Assembly: GCA_951406725.2 (NCBI GenBank)
Contig: OX597814.1
Span: 188,852,001-188,916,000 of the forward strand
Length of the DNA stretch: 64,000 nt
Reading direction: 5' to 3'
Origin: Octopus vulgaris
Taxonomy: Eukaryota
Positions 4,035-59,284 of the stretch are shown here, piece by piece. Below the pieces are notes generated by a model, which was not told the DNA's origin, made no database searches, and worked only from the letters and a program-made list of their open reading frames with translations. A program made the position numbers and the translations under genes. The stretch's first letter is position 1. Each line of letters opens with the position of its first letter.

Positions 4035-5845
4035 GTTAGTTAGTTAGTTAGTTAATTTGGCTCAAAAGCAAATAGCAAGGCCATGTAGGGGGGCATGGAG
4101 TTAAGTACAGGGTGGTGTTCATGTAAAGAGTTCAGGCCACTTGAGGTCCAGGGACGCTTTGAACAAAGCGGTCGTCGGCATCTTCACCATCTCGTCTGGC
4201 AGCTTGTTCCACGGATCCGCAACCCGGACGGAGAAGGCTCCTCTCCTTCGATTGAGATGAAATCGTCGCAGGTAGAGCTTTTCGGAATGACCCCGCAGCC
4301 GACGCTCCGGAGCAGGAGTGAAGAACAGCTCTTTCGAGAGGTTACACTTCCCGCTTATGATGTTGTGGGCGAGAATGAGATCACCACGGCGGCGGCGTTT
4401 TTCAAGAGAACAAAGGTCGAGCGTCCTCAGCCTTTCTTCGTAGGACAAATTTTTGAGACCATGAACCATGCGGGTAGCCAGCCTCTGGACTCTTTCGAGG
4501 TGCTGTATGTCTTTGAGGAGATAAGGAGAAGAGGCTTGAATCCCATACTCCAATATGGGTCTCACCAGCGTGACATAGAGTGGCAGGAATATGGCTGCTG
4601 TGAGCATTCCGAATGACCGTCGAATCAAAAACAGAATTCCGCGCGCTTTGTTGGCAGCATGGACGCACTGGGCCGAAGGCGAAAAGGAGGAATCCACCAA
4701 GATACCCAGGTCCTTTACCTGATCGGTCCTCTCCAGCAGCAGACGACCCGGCTCGAAATCAAGTTGAGTTGCAGGAGTAGAGCCGACAGGCAGATGACAG
4801 CACTTTGACACGTTCAGACACAGGTCCCAATCGTTAGACCACTTCCAAATTTGGTGGAGGCATCGACGAAGATCCTCTATACTACCGCGAGGAGCGACCA
4901 GTTTGATATCGTCGGCAAATAGAAGGGTGTGTTGCGTGAGGTCGTCGGGCAAGTCATTTATGAAGACTAAGAACAACAAGGGCCCAAGCACTGAACCTTG
5001 AGGCACGCCACTGCTCGCACTGGAGACGTCGGACCGCGAACCATTAACTTGAACTTGGAAGGAGCGATCTGAGAGGAAGGCACCAACCCATCGTACAATA
5101 TCCGGATGGAAACTATATGCTTGAAGCTTGACAAGTAGTAGGCGGTGGTTTACCGAGTCAAAAGCTTTGGCAAAGTCCAATAAAACGATGTCAACAGCAT
5201 CACTATTATCGAGGATGCGCGTCACCAATTCTTCCATTACTAGTAAGTTGGTCAAGCATGATCTCTTCGGCACGAAGCCGTGTTGGGAATCAGTGATCGA
5301 GGCTGTGTTTAGGAGGTGGAGCATCATACTTTTCTTAAGGATGGTTTCGAACATCTTGCTGATTATTGATGTAAGGGAAACCGGTCGGTAGTTAAGCGGG
5401 TCTTCGCGGCTCCCTTTCTTGAAAATTGGGCAGATTATCGCTGTTCTCCAGTCTGCAGGTATAACACCCGTCGCCAATGACATATTGAATAGTCGTGTTA
5501 AGGGCTCGCAAATGACCGGAGCCAACGCTTTGATAACCAGTGGGTGTATGCCGTCAGGGCCGTGATCCTTGTTGACATCGAGGCCTTGAATAACACGTTT
5601 GACTTGGTCCCGCGTGATGATCAATCGAAGCATTGGAGGTACCGATCTATCAAATGGAGGGGGTTCACGACCATCATCTTGTTTGAAAATAGTTGAAAAA
5701 GCCTCGGCAAATAATTGACTCTGTTGATAAGGGTCCTCAATCGATACGCCTGTTGAGTCTACCAACGTTGCAATCTGGTTGTTCAAGCGGGAATTCCGCT
5801 GGACATGGGCAAAGAAGGTTTTTGGATTGCTACTGGCATAGCTAG
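4035..5845 (-). mobile_element. 5'-truncated CR1-group LINE with (TAAC)n tail
   Basis: RT ORF, short 3' UTR and (TAAC)n tail at 4035-4053; GC content well above the flanks. Confidence 0.9.
4119..5845 (-). CDS. LINE ORF2 reverse transcriptase, uninterrupted but lacking endonuclease and true start
   Basis: Motifs GPDGIHP, NYRPVSLTS, QHGF, LDFAKAFDSV, GVPQGSVLGPLLF, FADDIKL and C-terminal FSVRVADPWNKLP. The first ~20 aa of the listed ORF (to 5909) appear to be flank. Confidence 0.9.
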
Positions 5846-6329
5846 TTTCTTTGGTTGCTACTTCTAAATTTCGGTATGTGGTGAAGTAACTTTTTTTGTC
5901 CAACCCCAATTATAATTATACTCATAATTATGAAAATTATTGTATAAATATATATATATTTACTTATTTACACCCCCCCCACGTATATATTCAAGGGAAT
6001 CGCCTGCAAGTTAACACGGGACCACTTAACGACAATGTAAACTTCATTTGATTAAGGTATCGCTGGCCCGACGAATAGAGTACCCCTCGTTTGGGCAATT
6101 ACTACTTCCGAGCTTTTTGGTAGCTATGAAACATATGTAGCCTGCATTTTATCTACTCCATTCTCTAATTCTGGCTATGTGTGTGTGTGTATTACTTGTT
6201 GTCGGCATTGAACTGAAATCAAGCTGGGGCTCTGCTTTAAACTAACTGACCCCAGTACATATGTCTTTAAGTCTAGAAAGACCAATTTATACATTAAGCA
6301 CTTTCCTAGAAACTGGTATTTACATATTG

Positions 6330-16743: not shown

Positions 16744-16942
16744 ATTCGTTAGCTACTGCACGCATTTTTTTTCTCTCCTTCTTTCTGTGTTTTTCTCTCT
16801 CTGTGTATCTTTCTGTTGAAGAGCGTAGGCTCGAAACGTTAAAGACTTGTTTTATTTATATTTCCTGAGCGCCATACTAATACAATTGTTCGTTTGTTTT
16901 CCACCTGCCTTCGTCTTTTGTTTATTTTCATAAAGCTTCCCG

Positions 16943-16944
<2 letters not shown>
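16744..16944 (+). mobile_element. Penelope-like terminal repeat (family P1), solo copy in (TA)n
   Basis: Nearly identical to 55638-55838 and 56256-56453; its 3' part is joined to the RT/GIY-YIG ORF at 18306-18400. Confidence 0.8.
16808..16845 (+). ncRNA. Hammerhead-like motif, variant core CUGUUGA
   Basis: tcttt CTGTTGA a gagc gtag gctc GAAA c GTT aaaga. Confidence 0.6.
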
Positions 16945-16986
<42 letters not shown>

Positions 16987-18250: not shown

Positions 18251-18305
18251 TAAGTATGGATATGCATGTGTATGCATGCATGTATATACATATATATATA
18301 TATAT

Positions 18306-19441
18306 AACGGGAAGCTTTATGAAAATAAACAAAAGACGAAGGCAGGTGGAAAACAAACGAACAATTGTATTAGTATGGCGCTCAGGAAATATAAATAAAA
18401 CCTCTGTGTAAGGACAAACCGAACACAGATAGGTGTTGCAAGGAGTGACCGGTGGAGCGGAAATGGCGTGAGACCGGTGTGTCGTTCGCAAGGTGGATGT
18501 CACGAAGGTGTTCCGCGAACCGGTCAGCCAAGCGGCGTCCCGTTTGTCCGATGTACAAGGAATTGCAGAGAGAGCAAGAGATGCAATAGATAATATTGCT
18601 GGAGGTGCAGGTGAAGGAGTGGATGATGGGATAGGGTCGATGGTGGGTGCTAGTGAGGCGGGTGGTATTGGAGAGGTAAGGGCAAGTGCGGCAACGTGGG
18701 CGGGAGCAGGGGAACGAGCCGGGTTGGGAGGTAGGGTCAGGGAAGGAGCTATGGACCAAAAGGTCTCGAAGGTTGTGGGCTCGTTTGAAAGAGGGGAGGG
18801 GTCGGTTAGGGAAGAGGTGTGAAGTGGACGGGTCGGACTGGAGATGACGGAAAGCTCGAAGAATGGTGCGTTGGAGACGTAGGGTCGTGGGGTGGTAAGT
18901 GAGGGGAAAAGGGAGGCGGGAGACTACAGGGCGGGTTCGGGGAGAGAGAGCAGATACACGGTCCACGGACCGTGCTCTGGCAAGGGCGGTGTGGATAGTG
19001 GTGAAGGGGTATCCACGTAGGGTGAAGTGGTGAGCCATACGTTGAGACTGAGTCTCAAAGTCATGGTCGTCACTACAGAGCCTACGTAGACGGAGGAATT
19101 GGGAATAGGGGATGGAAAGCTTGGTGTGTTCTGGGTGGGAGGAAGAGAAGTTGAGGTATGAGTGTGAGTCTGTGTGTTTGTAGTGAATGGAGGTGGTAAG
19201 AGTGGAGTGAAGAATGCTAACCGAAATGTCGAGGAAGGAGACAGAGGTGTTGGAGATAGTGGAAGTGAAGTGGAGGGCTGGATGGAAAGATTGGACGAAA
19301 GAGAGGAAGGAATCTAGATGTTCGCGGGAGAGTGAGGTGGCACCGATAATGTCGTCAATATAACGACCATATAGTTCAGGAGTGGGACCAGTGAAATTAG
19401 AGAATATTTGGGCCTCAACATAGCCAACGAACAGGTTCGCA
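18306..19441 (-). mobile_element. 5'-truncated Penelope-like retroelement (Neptune-type)
   Basis: RT/GIY-YIG ORF joined to the 3' part of the P1 terminal repeat; flanked by (TA)n on both sides. Confidence 0.9.
18382..19440 (-). pseudogene. Penelope RT C-terminal half + GIY-YIG endonuclease, truncated at both ends
   Basis: Frame extends upstream of the listed ATG: ANLFVGYVE..YGRYIDD..FLD..YKHTD..SSSHP..LRRLCS; CSRPRCRTC linker; NIIYCISCSLCNSLYIGQTGRRLADRFAEH. Confidence 0.9.
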
Positions 19442-19684
19442 ATATATATATATATATATATCAGTATTTAAGTAATCAATAACGCATGTGTGAATGCGTA
19501 AGTATGGGCAATTATATCTGTGTATGTGTATTTTTGTGTGATGTATATTATACAGAAATCAGTACATTACTATATATTTGATTTCATTTTTCCAGTTTAG
19601 AGATATTTCTCTGGTTATAATATCACTCAAAGATTGTTCACAGGCATGGAGAATTTAATTTATTAAATACATATAAAGTCATAA

Positions 19685-22540: not shown

Positions 22541-23600
22541 TGTGTACAGTGCTCAGGTGCACTACAACTCATCTAAAGTGTATATATAATCAGGTGAAGT
22601 TTCGGCGGATTTCGGAAAGCATGAGGGCCTTAAAAGATGCAGTGTCATGGCAGTCAACAACTGACGCAGGCAGTTTATTCCATGCTTCAGCAACTCTGAG
22701 CGTGAAAAAATGTTTCCGAAAGTCATGGGAGCTGTATTGTTTTCTGACTTTGTAGGCATGTCCACGTGTGTTAGACACATGGAGATCAAAAAGGTGTTCA
22801 GTGTTGTTGTTGGTGAGGTGGTTGATAACTTTGTGGGTGTTTACCAAGTCCGTCGCCAAACGCCGGAGCTTCAGTGAATCCATGCCCAGGGAAACAAGGC
22901 GCTCAGAATATGGTAGGTGTCTGATGGAGGGTATGCGTTTGGTTGCACGTCTCTGGACAGATTCCAGGAGGTCAATGTTCTGTGCAAGATAGGGGTTCCA
23001 AACTGATGATGCGAATTCCAAGTGTGGTCGTACCATAGCTGTATACAGTTTTAAATAGATGGCTGGAGAGCGGCTAACAAAAGACCTGCTGAGTGATGCC
23101 AAGACACCCTCGGCCTTCCTGACAATCTTAGAGATATGCTTTGACCAACGCAAATCACTGCTGACAGTGATGCCTAGGTCACGCTCGCAAGAGGATTTCT
23201 TGATATCAGTGTTGTGGAGGGAGTATGTGAACGCAGGGTTTTTTCTCCCAAAATGCATGGTGGTACACTTGTCCACAGCCAGTTTCAGTTGCCAGTCTGT
23301 GATCCATTGCTGCATTGTGTCTAGGTCTGATTGCAGGAAAGAGTTGTAGACATCAGGATCTGTCCTCTTGATTTCAAGGTACAGCTTGATGTCGTCTGCA
23401 TATTTCAATACTGTGGCATTCTCCAAATTGGCATCTATGTCGTTAATGTATGCCACAAACAAGAGGGGGCCAAGGACAGATCCCTGTGGTACACCCGATG
23501 ACATCTCATATGGTGTAGAGTGCTGTCCTAGAACTGTGACTACCTCCTTTCGGCTGAGGATGAAGGATTTCAACCAGTTAAAAAGGTCATCCCCAATATG
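22448..23600 (-). mobile_element. 5'-truncated CR1-group LINE (second family) with (TTA)n tail
   Basis: ORF 22590-23600 with SGVPQGSVLGPLLF, YADDIKL, ERDLGI and FFTLRVAEAWNKLP; short UTR; tail 22448-22540. Confidence 0.9.
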
Positions 23601-23877
23601 CTGATAACAGACTTTTAAATCGTCAATTTCCACATATTATTTACTCGCTACAGAAAACACGTAGAGCTGAAATCGAGGAAAGCTAGCCAACATAATTTTT
23701 TAAAAAAGCTCGTTATTTCTATATTGAATCAATTTCAGAATTAATCTCATAATAGATTTTTTTCCTCTTCAGTAGAAAATACGAAAAGAAATAAATGAAA
23801 TAATTACACGCGCCCATGGAAAAAGCCGAAGCAAGAATCATGAGTACATATAAGTACCCTAGATATATCTAAATATA

Positions 23878-40502: not shown

Positions 40503-40693
40503 GATCGTTAGCCCCTACACGCAATTCTTTTCTCTCCTTGTTTCTTTTCTGTGTATCTTTCTGTCGAAGAGCGTAGGCTCGAAACGTAAAAGACTTGTTT
40601 TATTTCTATTCCTGAGCGCCATACTAATACATTGTTTGTTTGTACTCCACCTGCCTTCGTCTTCTGTTTATTTTCGTAAACCTTCCCGTTATA
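40503..40693 (+). mobile_element. P1 Penelope terminal repeat; hammerhead-like motif at 40556-40593 (CUGUCGA)
   Basis: tcttt CTGTCGA a gagc gtag gctc GAAA c GTA aaaga. Confidence 0.75.
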
Positions 40694-40753
40694 TATAGGT
40701 ATACATATATATGTTTATATATATATACATATATATGTGTGTATGTGTGTGTG

Positions 40754-53287: not shown

Positions 53288-53511
53288 GAAAGCGGCGAGC
53301 TGGCAGAAACGTTAGCACGCCAGGCGAAATGCGTAGCCGTATTTCGTCTGCCGCTACGTTCCGAGTTCAAATTCCGCCGAGGTCGACTTTGCCTTTCATC
53401 CTTTCGGGGTCGATAAATTAAGTACCAGTTACGCACTGGGGTCTATGTAATCGACTTAATCCCTTCGTTTGCCCCCTCTGTGTTTAGCCCCTTGTGGGTA
53501 GTAAAGAAATA
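53288..53511 (+). mobile_element. SINE family C
   Basis: Full monomer. Confidence 0.9.
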
Positions 53512-55138: not shown

Positions 55139-55519
55139 CTTAGTATTTTTAAACTCATTTATTCTTATTCATTTGTTTATTTTTATTTATCTATTCATTT
55201 ACTTGTTTCTTTGCTTATTTCATTTGTTTATTTTGATTACTTATACATATAGGATTGTAACCAATTAATAAATAGATATAAATGAATGTCTACAGGCTGA
55301 TGCTTGTCGATTCATTATCCTCTCCATTTTCTTATTTGTCTTATAAATTCTGGGTAAATTTCTGTTTTACCCCCATTCATAGCTAGTATTCAATTGCGAT
55401 ACTACCCTGCAAAAGTAAGCACTTAGATATAAATACGTAGGTATACACCCAGTTGTATATTGGATATTTATTATCCCTTCGATGGTTACGTAACCTCCAA
55501 CTCATACAGACATATATAT

Positions 55520-56455
55520 TCCACTTCCACCCTGCTCTCCACTCGGATTCTTCCATCTTACCCATACTCCGCACCACATCTTACCGCCTTATGCGGGCCA
55601 CCATTCGCTCTAATCTCTCCAAACTACATGCCATCATTCGTTAGCTACTGCACGCATTTTTTTTCTCTCCTTCTTTCTGTGTTTTTCTCTCTCTGTGTAT
55701 CTTTCTGTTGAAGAGCGTAGGCTCGAAACGTTAAAGACTTGTTTTATTTATATTTCCTGAGCGCCATACTAATACAATTGTTCGTTTGTTTTCCACCTGC
55801 CTTCGTCTTTTGTTTATTTTCATAAAGCCTCCCGTTATATATTATGCGCTCACGTGGTCTCACTTTCATCCTATATTCTACCAATACCACTATCAACACT
55901 TACCTCTACCTTGGATTTTCTTTACCTCTTGGATACTTACCATTGGCTGCACCTCTCTTTCGCGGATCAAAGTGACTTTGCATTGATGTGAAATCCTTAA
56001 AAAATATACCACGACGTCTACACATTTCTCACCTTGAACTTTCAACCTTGAACTTGTTCGCATAAACTGTCCCGTTTGTTGTATTTTTATTTAAGCCGCT
56101 GCCTACATCACCGACTCATCCCTAAAGGTTTCCGCCTCCACTTCCACCCTGCTCTCCACTCGGATTCTTCCATCTTACCCATACTCCGCACCACATCTTA
56201 CCGCCTTATGCGGGCCACCATTCGCTCCAATCTCTCCAAACTACATGCCATCATTCGTTAGCTACTGCACGCATTTTTTTCTCTCCTTCTTTCTGTGTTT
56301 TTCTCTCTCTGTGTATCTTTCTGTTGAAGAGCGTAGGCTCGAAACGTTAAAGACTTGTTTTATTTATATTTCCTGAGCGCCATACTAATACAATTGTTCG
56401 TTTGTTTTCCACCTGCCTTCGTCTTTTGTTTATTTTCATAAAGCCTCCCGTTATA

Positions 56456-56457
<2 letters not shown>
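55520..56457 (+). mobile_element. Internally deleted Penelope-like element in partial tandem (non-autonomous)
   Basis: About 320-bp direct repeats 55520-55840 / 56137-56457; PLE ORF N-terminus YLSRCLHHRLIPKGFRL fused to the P1 repeat; hammerhead-like motifs at 55700-55737 and 56316-56353. Confidence 0.85.
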
Positions 56458-56488
<31 letters not shown>

Positions 56489-58000: not shown

Positions 58001-58307
58001 GAGTGGGTACTGAAAAATTCTTATCTTTGGGTAACAGAAAATACAGGAGGATTAGTTAATTATGATTTTATTCAAACTACTGCTTTTACAGATACAAACA
58101 TTTATTGCAAGGGTCCTGTAAAAGAACTCGAAAGTTTGGGCCTCCAGCCAGGCCTTTCCCGATACCATTAAAGCCAGTTACTTTCGAACCCCATCTCGCA
58201 TACATATTTACGTAGATACTATTACTCGCTAGATGGATCGCTTTCTTTGTCTCTCTACACATATATTTATAAGTATATATATATATGTATATCTGTTGCC
58301 ATGATAG

Positions 58308-58500
58308 ATCGTTAGCTACTACACACATTTTTTCTCTCCTTGTTTCTCTCCTTGTTTTTTTCTGTGTCCCTTTCTGTAGAAGAGCGTAGGCTCGAAACGT
58401 AAAAGACTTTTTTCTATTCTTGAGCGTTATAATAATACATCGGTTTGTTTTGTACACCACCTGTCTTCGTCTTTTGTTTTTTTCGTAAACTCTCCCTATG
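58308..58500 (+). mobile_element. P1-related Penelope terminal repeat; hammerhead-like motif at 58370-58405 (CUGUAGA)
   Basis: cttt CTGTAGA a gagc gtag gctc GAAA c GTA aaag. Confidence 0.75.
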
Positions 58501-58517
58501 TATATTTGTATACGCTT

Positions 58518-58548
<31 letters not shown>

Positions 58549-58771
58549 CACTAACATACACACGCACGCACACACACCCACACATACACACATATACACA
58601 CACATACACACATACGCATACATATAAAATGGCTTCATGTAGTGGTGCACACTCAACGGCGTTAGAGAGCATAAACATGAAAGTTATACTTGAGAAACGT
58701 TAACAGACATGGAGGCGATGAATACTAGAAAAAGGCCCCTTTATCGTGATGATACGCGCCGGTTATCAAAA

Positions 58772-59154
58772 AGGAAGCACTCCGTCGGTTACGACGATGA
58801 GGGTTCCGGTTGATCCGAATCAACGGAACAGCCTGCTCGTGAAATTAACGTGTAAGTGGCCGAGCACTCCACAGACACGTGTACCCTTAACGTAGTTCTC
58901 GGGGATATTCAGCGTGACACAGAGAGTGACAAGGCCGCCCTTTGAAATACAAGTACAACAGAAACAGGAAGTAAGAGTGAGAGAAAGTTGTGGTGAAAGA
59001 GTACAGCAGGGATCACCACCATCCGCTGCCGGAGCCTCGTGGAGCTTTAGGTGTTTTCGCTCAATAAACACTCACAACGCCCGGTCTGGGAATCGAAACC
59101 GCGATCCTATGACCGCGAGTCCGCTGCCCTAACCACTGGGCCATTGCGCCTCCA
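58772..59154 (-). mobile_element. SINE family A, full length
   Basis: TSD cggttatcaaaa at 58760-58771 / 59155-59166. Confidence 0.93.
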
Positions 59155-59284
59155 CGGTTATCAAAATGCCGACACCATGACTGCTGTTCAATGCTCTATG
59201 AACAGTGTAAAGACTGTCAGACGTGACATGAACAGGTTCAACGGAGACTACAACACGGTGACCTGCGTCATAGCAGTCGCTCGG

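What the first reader, a model, noticed from the sequence alone, without database searches (positions are those of the whole stretch)
55520..56457. 616-nt ribozyme-to-ribozyme mini-Penelope: candidate retrozyme-like non-autonomous element
Seen: a partial monomer followed by a full monomer; the ~320-bp repeats are almost identical, and the predicted cleavage sites (after 55732 and 56348) are 616 nt apart. The monomer contains a leader plus the first ~60 codons of a PLE ORF (LSRC..RLIPKGFRL) fused through attcg microhomology to the terminal repeat. Both repeats carry the deletion junction, so the deleted form itself was copied. Known: partial-tandem structure is typical of PLEs, minimal hammerheads act as tandem dimers, and retrozymes produce monomeric circular RNAs. 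Inference: a PLE deletion derivative becoming a small self-processing (possibly circular) RNA parasite that uses the variant CUGUUGA ribozyme and the RT/GIY-YIG protein in trans.
Basis: partly seen in the sequence, partly recalled or inferred. Interest (0 to 1): 0.85.

Follow-up and report, generated by a model that had tools for sequence, protein, structure and literature searches.

The report
Rolling-circle mini-copy of Penelope retroelement
Two hammerhead ribozyme motifs lie 616 bases apart in a one-off, shortened copy of a Penelope-like jumping gene, likely made when its reverse transcriptase went more than once round a short piece of its own RNA; similar one-off arrays recur in this genome and would show how ribozyme-bearing repeats ('retrozymes') can be born.

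Summary
The repeat, the two minimal hammerheads and the 616-nt spacing are real. The retrozyme family is not supported: both internal junctions occur only at this locus in the 2.8-Gb assembly.

The source is a young ~4.5-kb RT/GIY-YIG Penelope-like element that inserts into (TA)n. Of 92 leader-bearing insertion events examined, 12 are similar mini-copies, each with its own back-joint. Ten of 12 leave the leader at unit positions 445-510. All 12 rejoin at -81..+27, around or just upstream of the site where about half of all copies begin (a likely RNA 5' end). None rejoins at the ribozyme cut (+98). All six events that carry the joint twice or more repeat it exactly, and none is joined to the normal upstream tail.

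Best reading (0.7): more-than-unit, rolling-circle-like reverse transcription of a short 5' transcript closed near its 5' end, without needing the ribozyme. Cleavage is doubtful (U6, GUU triplet) and no RNA evidence was available. This is a new variant of a known kind, useful as a testable route for retrozyme birth.

The parts
55507..55519 (.). 5' flank, short (TA)-type target run; insertion begins at 55520
   Evidence: sequence; parent match starts at 55520 = unit position u1015
55520..55636 (+). ORF fragment B, copy 1 (parent unit u1015-1131), 5'-truncated; where the last pass of copying stopped
   Evidence: L157
55636..55636 (+). junction J2, copy 1 (u1131|u1), 1-nt overlap
55636..55842 (+). 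terminal repeat (pLTR), copy 1, u1-207
55700..55737 (+). minimal type I hammerhead, copy 1: 5-bp stem I, core with U at position 6 and an extra A before stem II, 4-bp stem II, palindromic 4-nt helix III, predicted cut after 55732 (GUU)
   Evidence: anatomy as in PMC4209133; activity untested
55843..56092 (+). leader (5' UTR) of the parent, u208-457, single copy
56091..56092 (+). junction J1 (u457|u970): 512 nt missing, including the ATG; 1-nt overlap; not GT-AG; present once in the genome
56092..56253 (+). ORF fragment B, copy 2 (u970-1131); 54 codons, no start, residues 50-103 of the parent protein
56253..56253 (+). junction J2, copy 2, identical to copy 1
56253..56458 (+). terminal repeat, copy 2, u1-207; ends at the family's fixed 3' end, where reverse transcription likely started
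   Evidence: 30 of 30 sampled copies end at u205-207
56316..56353 (+). minimal hammerhead, copy 2; predicted cut after 56348
56452..56488 (.). (TA)n target microsatellite, 3' flank

Best explanation
This is a single, locus-private insertion of a young Penelope-like retrotransposon family, likely made when the element's reverse transcriptase copied a short 5' piece of its own RNA more than once round, with the template likely closed near the RNA's 5' end rather than at the hammerhead cut. SHOWN: the architecture B-J2-TR-leader-J1-B-J2-TR in a (TA)n run; private junctions; a full-length 4.5-kb parent family; a fixed 3' end at u205-207; a pile-up of 5' ends at u-19..+12; 11 analogous events elsewhere whose repeated joints are identical within each locus. 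INFERRED path: the protein, made in trans by a full-length copy, nicks (TA)n and primes at u207 inside the 5' terminal repeat. RT runs to the RNA's 5' end near u1. It usually stops there, giving ~220-bp solo repeats. Rarely it continues onto a downstream part of the same transcript, here u1131. It then copied back to u970, skipped to u457 (J1), went through leader and repeat again, crossed the same joint a second time and stopped at u1015. The form of closure is unresolved. I favour an RT jump held in register by the first cDNA strand (about 0.4 of the 0.7) over a covalent, non-ribozyme RNA circle (about 0.3). The locus now has the layout of a retrozyme monomer but has left no daughters in this assembly.
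For: J2 matches 2 places, both here; J1 matches 1. Of 148 leader-start matches, the 100 listed were all fetched and classed: 93 loci, 92 events after merging L158/L174, which are 96.9% alike over 3 kb including flanks. They comprise 78 ORF-bearing loci, 13 mini loci (12 events) and 2 others. Leader-side breaks lie at u445-510 in 10 of 12 events; the window's J1 also falls there. Rejoin sites are u+1 (5 events), u-67..-81 (5), +10 and +27, and 0 of 12 at the cut u98. Six of 12 events carry the joint 2-5 times, identical within each locus; a seventh two-joint locus, L256, lies outside the sample. Five of those six begin inside the leader or ORF, which unequal crossing-over between terminal repeats cannot produce. 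The normal tail precedes the first repeat in 71 of 78 ORF-bearing loci by the script's test. That test flagged 3 of 13 mini loci, but all three start inside the repeat: two behind CA runs and one behind an older diverged copy. 5' ends: 534 copies start in the 18-nt window u-6..+12 (only rows whose first letter is A/T were counted), against 3,111 that extend past it. Of 30 of the latter, 15 start at u-8..-19. A same-size control window ~35 nt upstream with the same ATGTT start holds 43. The joint u493|u1 arose in two different subfamilies (C8 array and L255). Internal RT initiation without need for hammerhead cleavage is shown in vitro for an Anolis PLE (PMC11167929). Exact repeated jumps on a linear RNA are shown for DRT2 (PMC12039810 passages).
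Against: No RNA data bear on it. The RNA 5' end is inferred from where copies stop, and AT/TA microhomology with the target shapes the exact positions. Five of 12 rejoin sites lie ~50-60 nt upstream of the main pile-up. L174's upstream joint reads differently from its downstream one; I set it aside as an error-rich duplicate of L158, which is a judgement. A hammerhead cut followed by religation leaves no scar, so it cannot be excluded from DNA. J1 is seen once, so whether it lay in the template is unknown. Neither J1 nor J2 appeared in the joint table of the four laid runs (contigs only, tables cut), so this locus has no independent confirmation. Privacy of joints was tested genome-wide only for the window and for the u1 joints of C8, C2:437 and C5:640. 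48 of the 148 leader matches were not examined.
Confidence: 0.7

Rival explanations
1. One reading: a deleted donor element carrying J1 and J2 was transcribed, cut twice by the hammerheads into a 616-nt RNA, circularised at the cut and rolled into this site. The donor is missing from the assembly.
For: The architecture is exactly what such a circle would give. Cuts are 616 nt apart, and a ribozyme seam is invisible. Circularisation is the published proposal for PLEs (PMC4209133). Five single-joint, two-repeat loci (L148, L154, L192, L019, L039) show that donor-like structures do form, three or four of them with both hammerheads whole.
Against: No donor was found for the window, C8 or C2:437 joints in genome-wide searches. 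No two of 12 events share a joint. The sub-lineage's leader-bearing members lack both deletions. The core has U6 and the youngest subfamily a GUU triplet. Metazoan minimal hammerheads cut weakly in vitro, and 8 of 9 Xenopus retrozyme dimers gave no product. Copies starting at the cut are scarce: 100 in a 13-nt window, about 30 of them by eye at the cut itself, where TA microhomology also favours joining; 0 of the 30 C-variant loci fetched start at u96-100. The 616-nt circle folds less stably than shuffles (z +1.6), unlike the highly paired retrozyme circles.
Confidence: 0.15
2. DNA-level rearrangement: a resident partial-tandem element suffered two deletions, then a local duplication or gene conversion copied the B-J2-TR block upstream.
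For: Microhomology-mediated deletions are reported in PLE copies (PMC3846280 passages). Internal deletions occur in full-length copies here (L187, L207, L009, L213, L215). Later unequal crossing-over may have lengthened arrays such as C8.
Against: It needs three events at one very young locus that is within 1 substitution of 16 full-length copies. It does not predict breakpoints clustered at u445-510 and -81..+27, the absence of upstream tail, or arrays that begin inside the leader.
Confidence: 0.08
3. Assembly artefact: the repeat was created by mis-joining reads of a 3,000-copy family.
For: Homopolymer differences suggest residual assembly errors; L174 looks like an error-rich duplicate; the junctions were not seen in laid contigs.
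Against: The two copies differ by a substitution and both carry a rare variant found in 86 copies. The joints are novel sequence with consistent geometry across 12 events. A contig of another DNA run shows a back-joint of the same kind, about u435 to u3 (table 5c; one contig, weak).
Confidence: 0.04

Closest known systems
EN+ Penelope-like elements of the Neptune/Nematis type with minimal hammerheads in their pseudo-LTRs (PMC4209133; PMC8557442)
   Same: Parent ORF of 1,079 aa with RT (PF00078) and a weak C-terminal GIY-YIG hit, a Cx4CxxC linker between them, partial tandems, (TA)n targeting, a minimal hammerhead with an extra nucleotide before stem II and a palindromic helix III.
   Different: This copy is non-coding, 940 bp, with two private junctions. 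The core has U at position 6 where related motifs in the fetched loci have A. The clade was not placed on a tree.
Animal non-LTR retrozymes (PMC7229834; bioRxiv 10.64898/2026.07.22.740005)
   Same: Non-coding head-to-tail units of a few hundred bases, each with a type I hammerhead, derived from the pLTR region of a PLE; the preprint reports family lengths of 51-972 bp.
   Different: Described retrozymes are multi-locus families, and those in PMC7229834 have canonical, efficient hammerheads and abundant, highly paired circular RNAs. Here each unit is private to one locus, the ribozyme is a minimal variant, no RNA is shown and folding is weak.
Internal initiation of reverse transcription by the Anolis Poseidon PLE (PMC11167929)
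   Same: A fixed genomic 3' end that marks the RT start inside the RNA, AT-rich targets, and hammerhead cleavage not needed for insertion in vitro.
   Different: That study does not describe back-joints or multi-unit copying of 5' fragments in the parts I read (parts 1-2 of 4); its start site lies inside the ORF, here it lies 616 nt upstream of the ATG.
DRT2 concatemeric cDNA by repeated template jumps (PMC12039810)
   Same: Exact tandem cDNA made from a linear RNA, rolling-circle-like.
   Different: A bacterial defence RT with a programmed jump; here the jump would be rare, vary between events and come from an unrelated RT. An analogy only.

Membership tests
Penelope-like element (EN+), as source family | single ORF with RT and C-terminal GIY-YIG endonuclease | tested here: met
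   L062 ORF 1,079 aa: RVT_1 E 1.4e-7, above cut-off; GIY-YIG E 0.0065, below the curated cut-off
Penelope-like element (EN+), as source family | partial-tandem structure with pseudo-LTRs bearing a hammerhead | tested here: met
   hammerhead-to-hammerhead 4,501-4,573 nt in L056, L057, L058, L062, L063; tail upstream in 71 of 78 ORF-bearing loci
Neptune clade | CX2-5CxxC linker between RT and EN | tested here: met
   motif present in the L062 translation; shared with Nematis per PMC8557442 passages
Neptune clade | placement in the RT phylogeny | not tested
   no reference set was fetched; Neptune versus Nematis is open
Minimal type I hammerhead of PLEs | stems I and II, extra nucleotide after position 9, G10.1-C11.1 pair, palindromic 15.2-16.2 | tested here: met
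   against the description in PMC4209133
Minimal type I hammerhead of PLEs | canonical core CUGANGA | tested here: not met
   U at position 6 in nearly all of 189 motif contexts tallied; A6 only in 3 rows from diverged relatives. No paper on this variant was found; PMC5785218 was not held
Minimal type I hammerhead of PLEs | self-cleavage | not testable with these tools
   needs in vitro transcription
Animal non-LTR retrozyme | non-coding tandem units each with a type I hammerhead | tested here: inconclusive
   two hammerheads but only 1.5 units here; the C8 array has 4.5 units of 492 nt. The tandem finder's 500-nt period limit makes uninformative for 616
Animal non-LTR retrozyme | a family: the same monomer at several loci | tested here: not met
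   J2 2 matches and J1 1 match, all in the window
Animal non-LTR retrozyme | highly self-paired circular RNA | tested here: not met
   predicted circle -72.5 kcal/mol against shuffles -80.8 +/- 5.1 (40 shuffles), 41% paired; prediction only
Animal non-LTR retrozyme | monomer-length linear and circular RNA in vivo | not testable with these tools
   only assembled contigs were available

The most novel reading that the evidence does not exclude
Penelope-like RT rolls round its own 5' transcript fragments through a joint at the RNA's 5' end, with no help from the ribozyme, and so creates retrozyme-like hammerhead arrays de novo. Here that gives about 1 in 8 leader-bearing insertions. These loci would be the birth stage of animal retrozymes, and the same end-crossing may be how pseudo-LTRs are regenerated.
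Probability: 0.45. Interest if true: 0.72.

Novelty: new variant of a known kind. Interest (0 to 1): 0.5.

Why it matters
How PLEs make more-than-unit copies, and what their hammerheads do, are open questions. [quoted passage not shown] PMC4209133 proposes ribozyme-made circles, while PMC11167929 finds cleavage dispensable in vitro. The 2026 preprint derives retrozymes from pLTRs but leaves the mechanism open. This family leaves scarred joints whose positions can be read: they point to the RNA's 5' end, not the cut. That gives exact substrates (u1-457, u1-493, u1-1131) for an existing type of in vitro assay. The single locus is a dead-end copy; the value lies in the genome-wide pattern. I found no description of such joints in paper searches; the library lacks most subscription journals.

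Tried and rejected
- J1 or J2 as splice or back-splice junctions: no GT..AG on either strand against the parent.
- 'attcg' microhomology: the overlap is 1 nt.
- Rfam at gathering thresholds: no match in the window.
- Pfam on the 54-aa fragment: none.
- Repeat finder on the whole window: swamped by microsatellites.
- Cofolding two hammerhead copies did not return the catalytic dimer fold, so it is uninformative.
- Sequencing runs: no RNA holder listed, contigs only. Laying four runs on the parent's 5' region listed no J1 or J2 joint and no start or end peaks; contigs cannot show these.
- Using differences between a parent's two terminal repeats to test for a ribozyme-type chimera: L056 and L057 each differ from the window by one private change, which may be later mutation or assembly error, so I drew nothing from it.
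- The junction script failed or mis-walked on 8 of 21 loci (L158, L174, L211, L088, L217, L218, L219, L222); where used, their breakpoints come.
- The uniform-breakpoint probabilities printed use a window chosen after seeing the data and are not relied on.
- The 'A6U' paper hit concerns twister ribozymes.
- Earlier scan notes on this genome or sequence: none.
- No supplementary files were read; those of PMC4209133 may list U6 variants.

Full report
COORDINATES. The window is G000:C1:188852001-188916000 of a 2.8-Gb assembly. Its size, microsatellite load and ~30 large contigs recall an octopus; that is recalled, not tested. I use unit coordinates u on one natural full-length copy (L057): u1 is the first base of the terminal repeat as it appears in the window, the predicted hammerhead cut is at u98, the family's 3' end at u205-207, the ATG at u823, and the unit is 4,509 nt.

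OBSERVATION. The repeat is real: 55520-55842 against 56137-56458, 99.4%. Each copy holds a minimal type I hammerhead, with predicted cuts after 55732 and 56348, 616 nt apart. The anatomy fits the PLE minimal hammerheads of PMC4209133 (parts 1-2 of 4 read): short stem I, extra nucleotide before stem II, palindromic helix III. Two features cast doubt on activity. Position 6 is U rather than A, and the youngest subfamily has a GUU triplet where older ones have GUA. That GUU is a poor triplet and A6 a conserved base is from my own knowledge. The paper most likely to cover such variants (PMC5785218) was not held.

Against full-length relatives the insertion reads u1015-1131, u1-457, u970-1131, u1-207. 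So there are two junctions. J2 (u1131|u1) occurs twice and J1 (u457|u970, 512 nt missing including the ATG) once. Each has a 1-nt overlap; neither is a GT-AG intron. The ORF piece is residues 50-103 of a 1,079-aa RT/GIY-YIG protein with the Cys linker of Neptune/Nematis elements (PMC8557442 passages).

IS IT A FAMILY? No. With one mismatch allowed, J2 matches only the two window copies and J1 only the window. Both window repeats carry a rare C near u194. That variant has 86 copies; only three are followed by leader: the window and two full-length elements without the deletions. The source lineage was therefore intact, and the junctions most likely arose in this insertion event.

THE WIDER PATTERN. 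The repeat-to-leader boundary has 148 exact matches. I fetched all 100 listed: 93 loci, 92 events. Of these, 78 loci continue into the ORF, 2 are inversion-type, and 13 loci (12 events) jump back to the terminal repeat and, except L039 (u410) and L161 (u193), end at u207. Ten of 12 leave the leader at u445-510; L211 leaves at u299 and the window at u1131, although its J1 leaves at u457. They rejoin at u+1 (5), u-67..-81 (5), +10 and +27, never at u98. Six events carry the joint two to five times, always identical within the locus. L256 is a seventh outside the sample. L174 is the exception in reading, but it is an error-rich duplicate of L158. None of the 12 is joined to the normal upstream tail, against 71 of 78 ORF-bearing loci; the script's three flags among mini loci trace to CA runs or an older neighbouring copy. 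Five of the six multi-joint events begin inside the leader or ORF, so their uppermost unit has no terminal repeat to misalign with. One search adds three more leader|u1 joints; one (L255) repeats the C8 position in a different subfamily.

WHERE THE RNA LIKELY BEGINS. All 30 sampled copies end at u205-207 in (TA)n. 534 copies start within u-6..+12 (a lower bound; 14 of the first 23 rows start at the GTTGA motif by eye). Of those extending further (3,111), 15 of 30 start at u-8..-19. That is roughly 57% of ~3,650 copies, with a wide margin because it rests on 30 loci. A control window of the same size and the same ATGTT start holds 43, about 3% of the ~1,350 copies estimated to reach it (13 of 30 keep its anchor). 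The window over the hammerhead cut holds 100; by eye about 30 start at the cut, where TA microhomology also helps, and none has leader joined there. The simplest reading is an RNA 5' end near u-19..+1, in line with the internal pLTR promoter of Drosophila Penelope (PMC2377424 passages). This is inference from DNA.

MECHANISM. RT primes at u207 inside the 5' repeat, as internal initiation in the Anolis element suggests (PMC11167929, parts 1-2 of 4). It runs to the RNA's 5' end and mostly stops. Rarely it crosses to a downstream part of the transcript and then behaves as on a circle. In six of seven sampled events that clearly reached their joint again it crossed identically; L039 stopped at u7. 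Either the RNA piece was covalently closed, or the first cDNA held the two ends in register; DRT2 shows that exact repeats can come from a linear RNA (PMC12039810 passages). Because J1 was passed only once, the template may have been 1,131 nt with one skip, so a 616-nt RNA need never have existed. It also needs a ribozyme class that cuts weakly (8 of 9 Xenopus dimers inactive, preprint parts 1-3 of 5), and the predicted circle is poorly folded compared with described retrozyme circles (PMC7229834, part 2 of 6 and passages).

LIMITS. No raw reads or confirmed RNA runs were available. In four contig sets J1 and J2 were not listed; one DNA run shows a back-joint of the same kind (about u435 to u3) in a single contig, and two RNA-guessed runs hold 1.1-1.3-kb contigs across the intact leader and ORF start. 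The locus itself is thus unconfirmed outside the assembly. Other papers seen as passages only: PMC6765202, PMC3846280, PMC6155905, PMC11662667 (irrelevant). No supplements were read. Earlier scan notes describe hammerhead pairs elsewhere as ordinary PLE parts, and ribozyme-free tandem units inserted in the PLE manner; I did not test them.

VERDICT. The locus works like a retrozyme precursor but fails membership on spread and folding. It is one of at least a dozen private, rolling-circle-like mini-copies whose joints point to the RNA's 5' end rather than the ribozyme. Novelty: new variant of a known kind. Interest 0.5; the bolder reading, a ribozyme-independent birth route for animal retrozymes, has probability 0.45 and interest 0.72.

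Noticed in passing
G000:C8:18600222-18602450 (L059): 4.5-unit array of a 492-nt mini-monomer with five hammerheads and five identical joints, units differing only by one T; an inverted terminal-repeat fragment sits at its 5' end. It is the best retrozyme-like case here, yet its joint is found at no other locus of that subfamily.
   Followed up: yes
window 16744-16950 (+), 40505-40696 (+), 58297-58506 (+): Solo terminal repeats of three ages; position 7 of the core varies (U, C, A) while U6 is kept. By extrapolation, roughly half of ~3,600 copies are such ~220-bp solos, which could be SINE-like self-propagators.
   Followed up: partly
window 18290-19460 (-): 5'-truncated copy with RT thumb and GIY-YIG coding sequence joined directly to the terminal repeat about 9 nt downstream of the predicted cut, so tail and hammerhead are missing.
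   Followed up: no
L057 ~2941; L056, L058, L063: An A-run early in the ORF is frameshifted in several assembled copies, while all four laid runs show the extra A; probably homopolymer error in the assembly.
   Followed up: partly
L062 ORF, last ~120 aa: The ORF runs past the GIY-YIG domain into a long Pro/Ser/Leu low-complexity tail.
   Followed up: no
G000:C10:7331876 and 7336330 (L215, L007); C6:117391922-117400869: Full-length tandems; the C10 pair repeats an internal deletion starting near u509 in both units, again within the leader hotspot.
   Followed up: partly
G000:C1:190144843 and C2:193575711 (L158, L174): The same mini-insertion with the same flanks on two contigs, 96.9% alike with many indels; duplication or assembly redundancy.
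   Followed up: partly
window 4119-5909 (-), 22590-23636 (-): LINE-type reverse transcriptase ORFs by eye.
   Followed up: no
window ~53290-53510 and ~58630-59160: SINE-like repeats that also occur in flanks of other loci (by eye).
   Followed up: no
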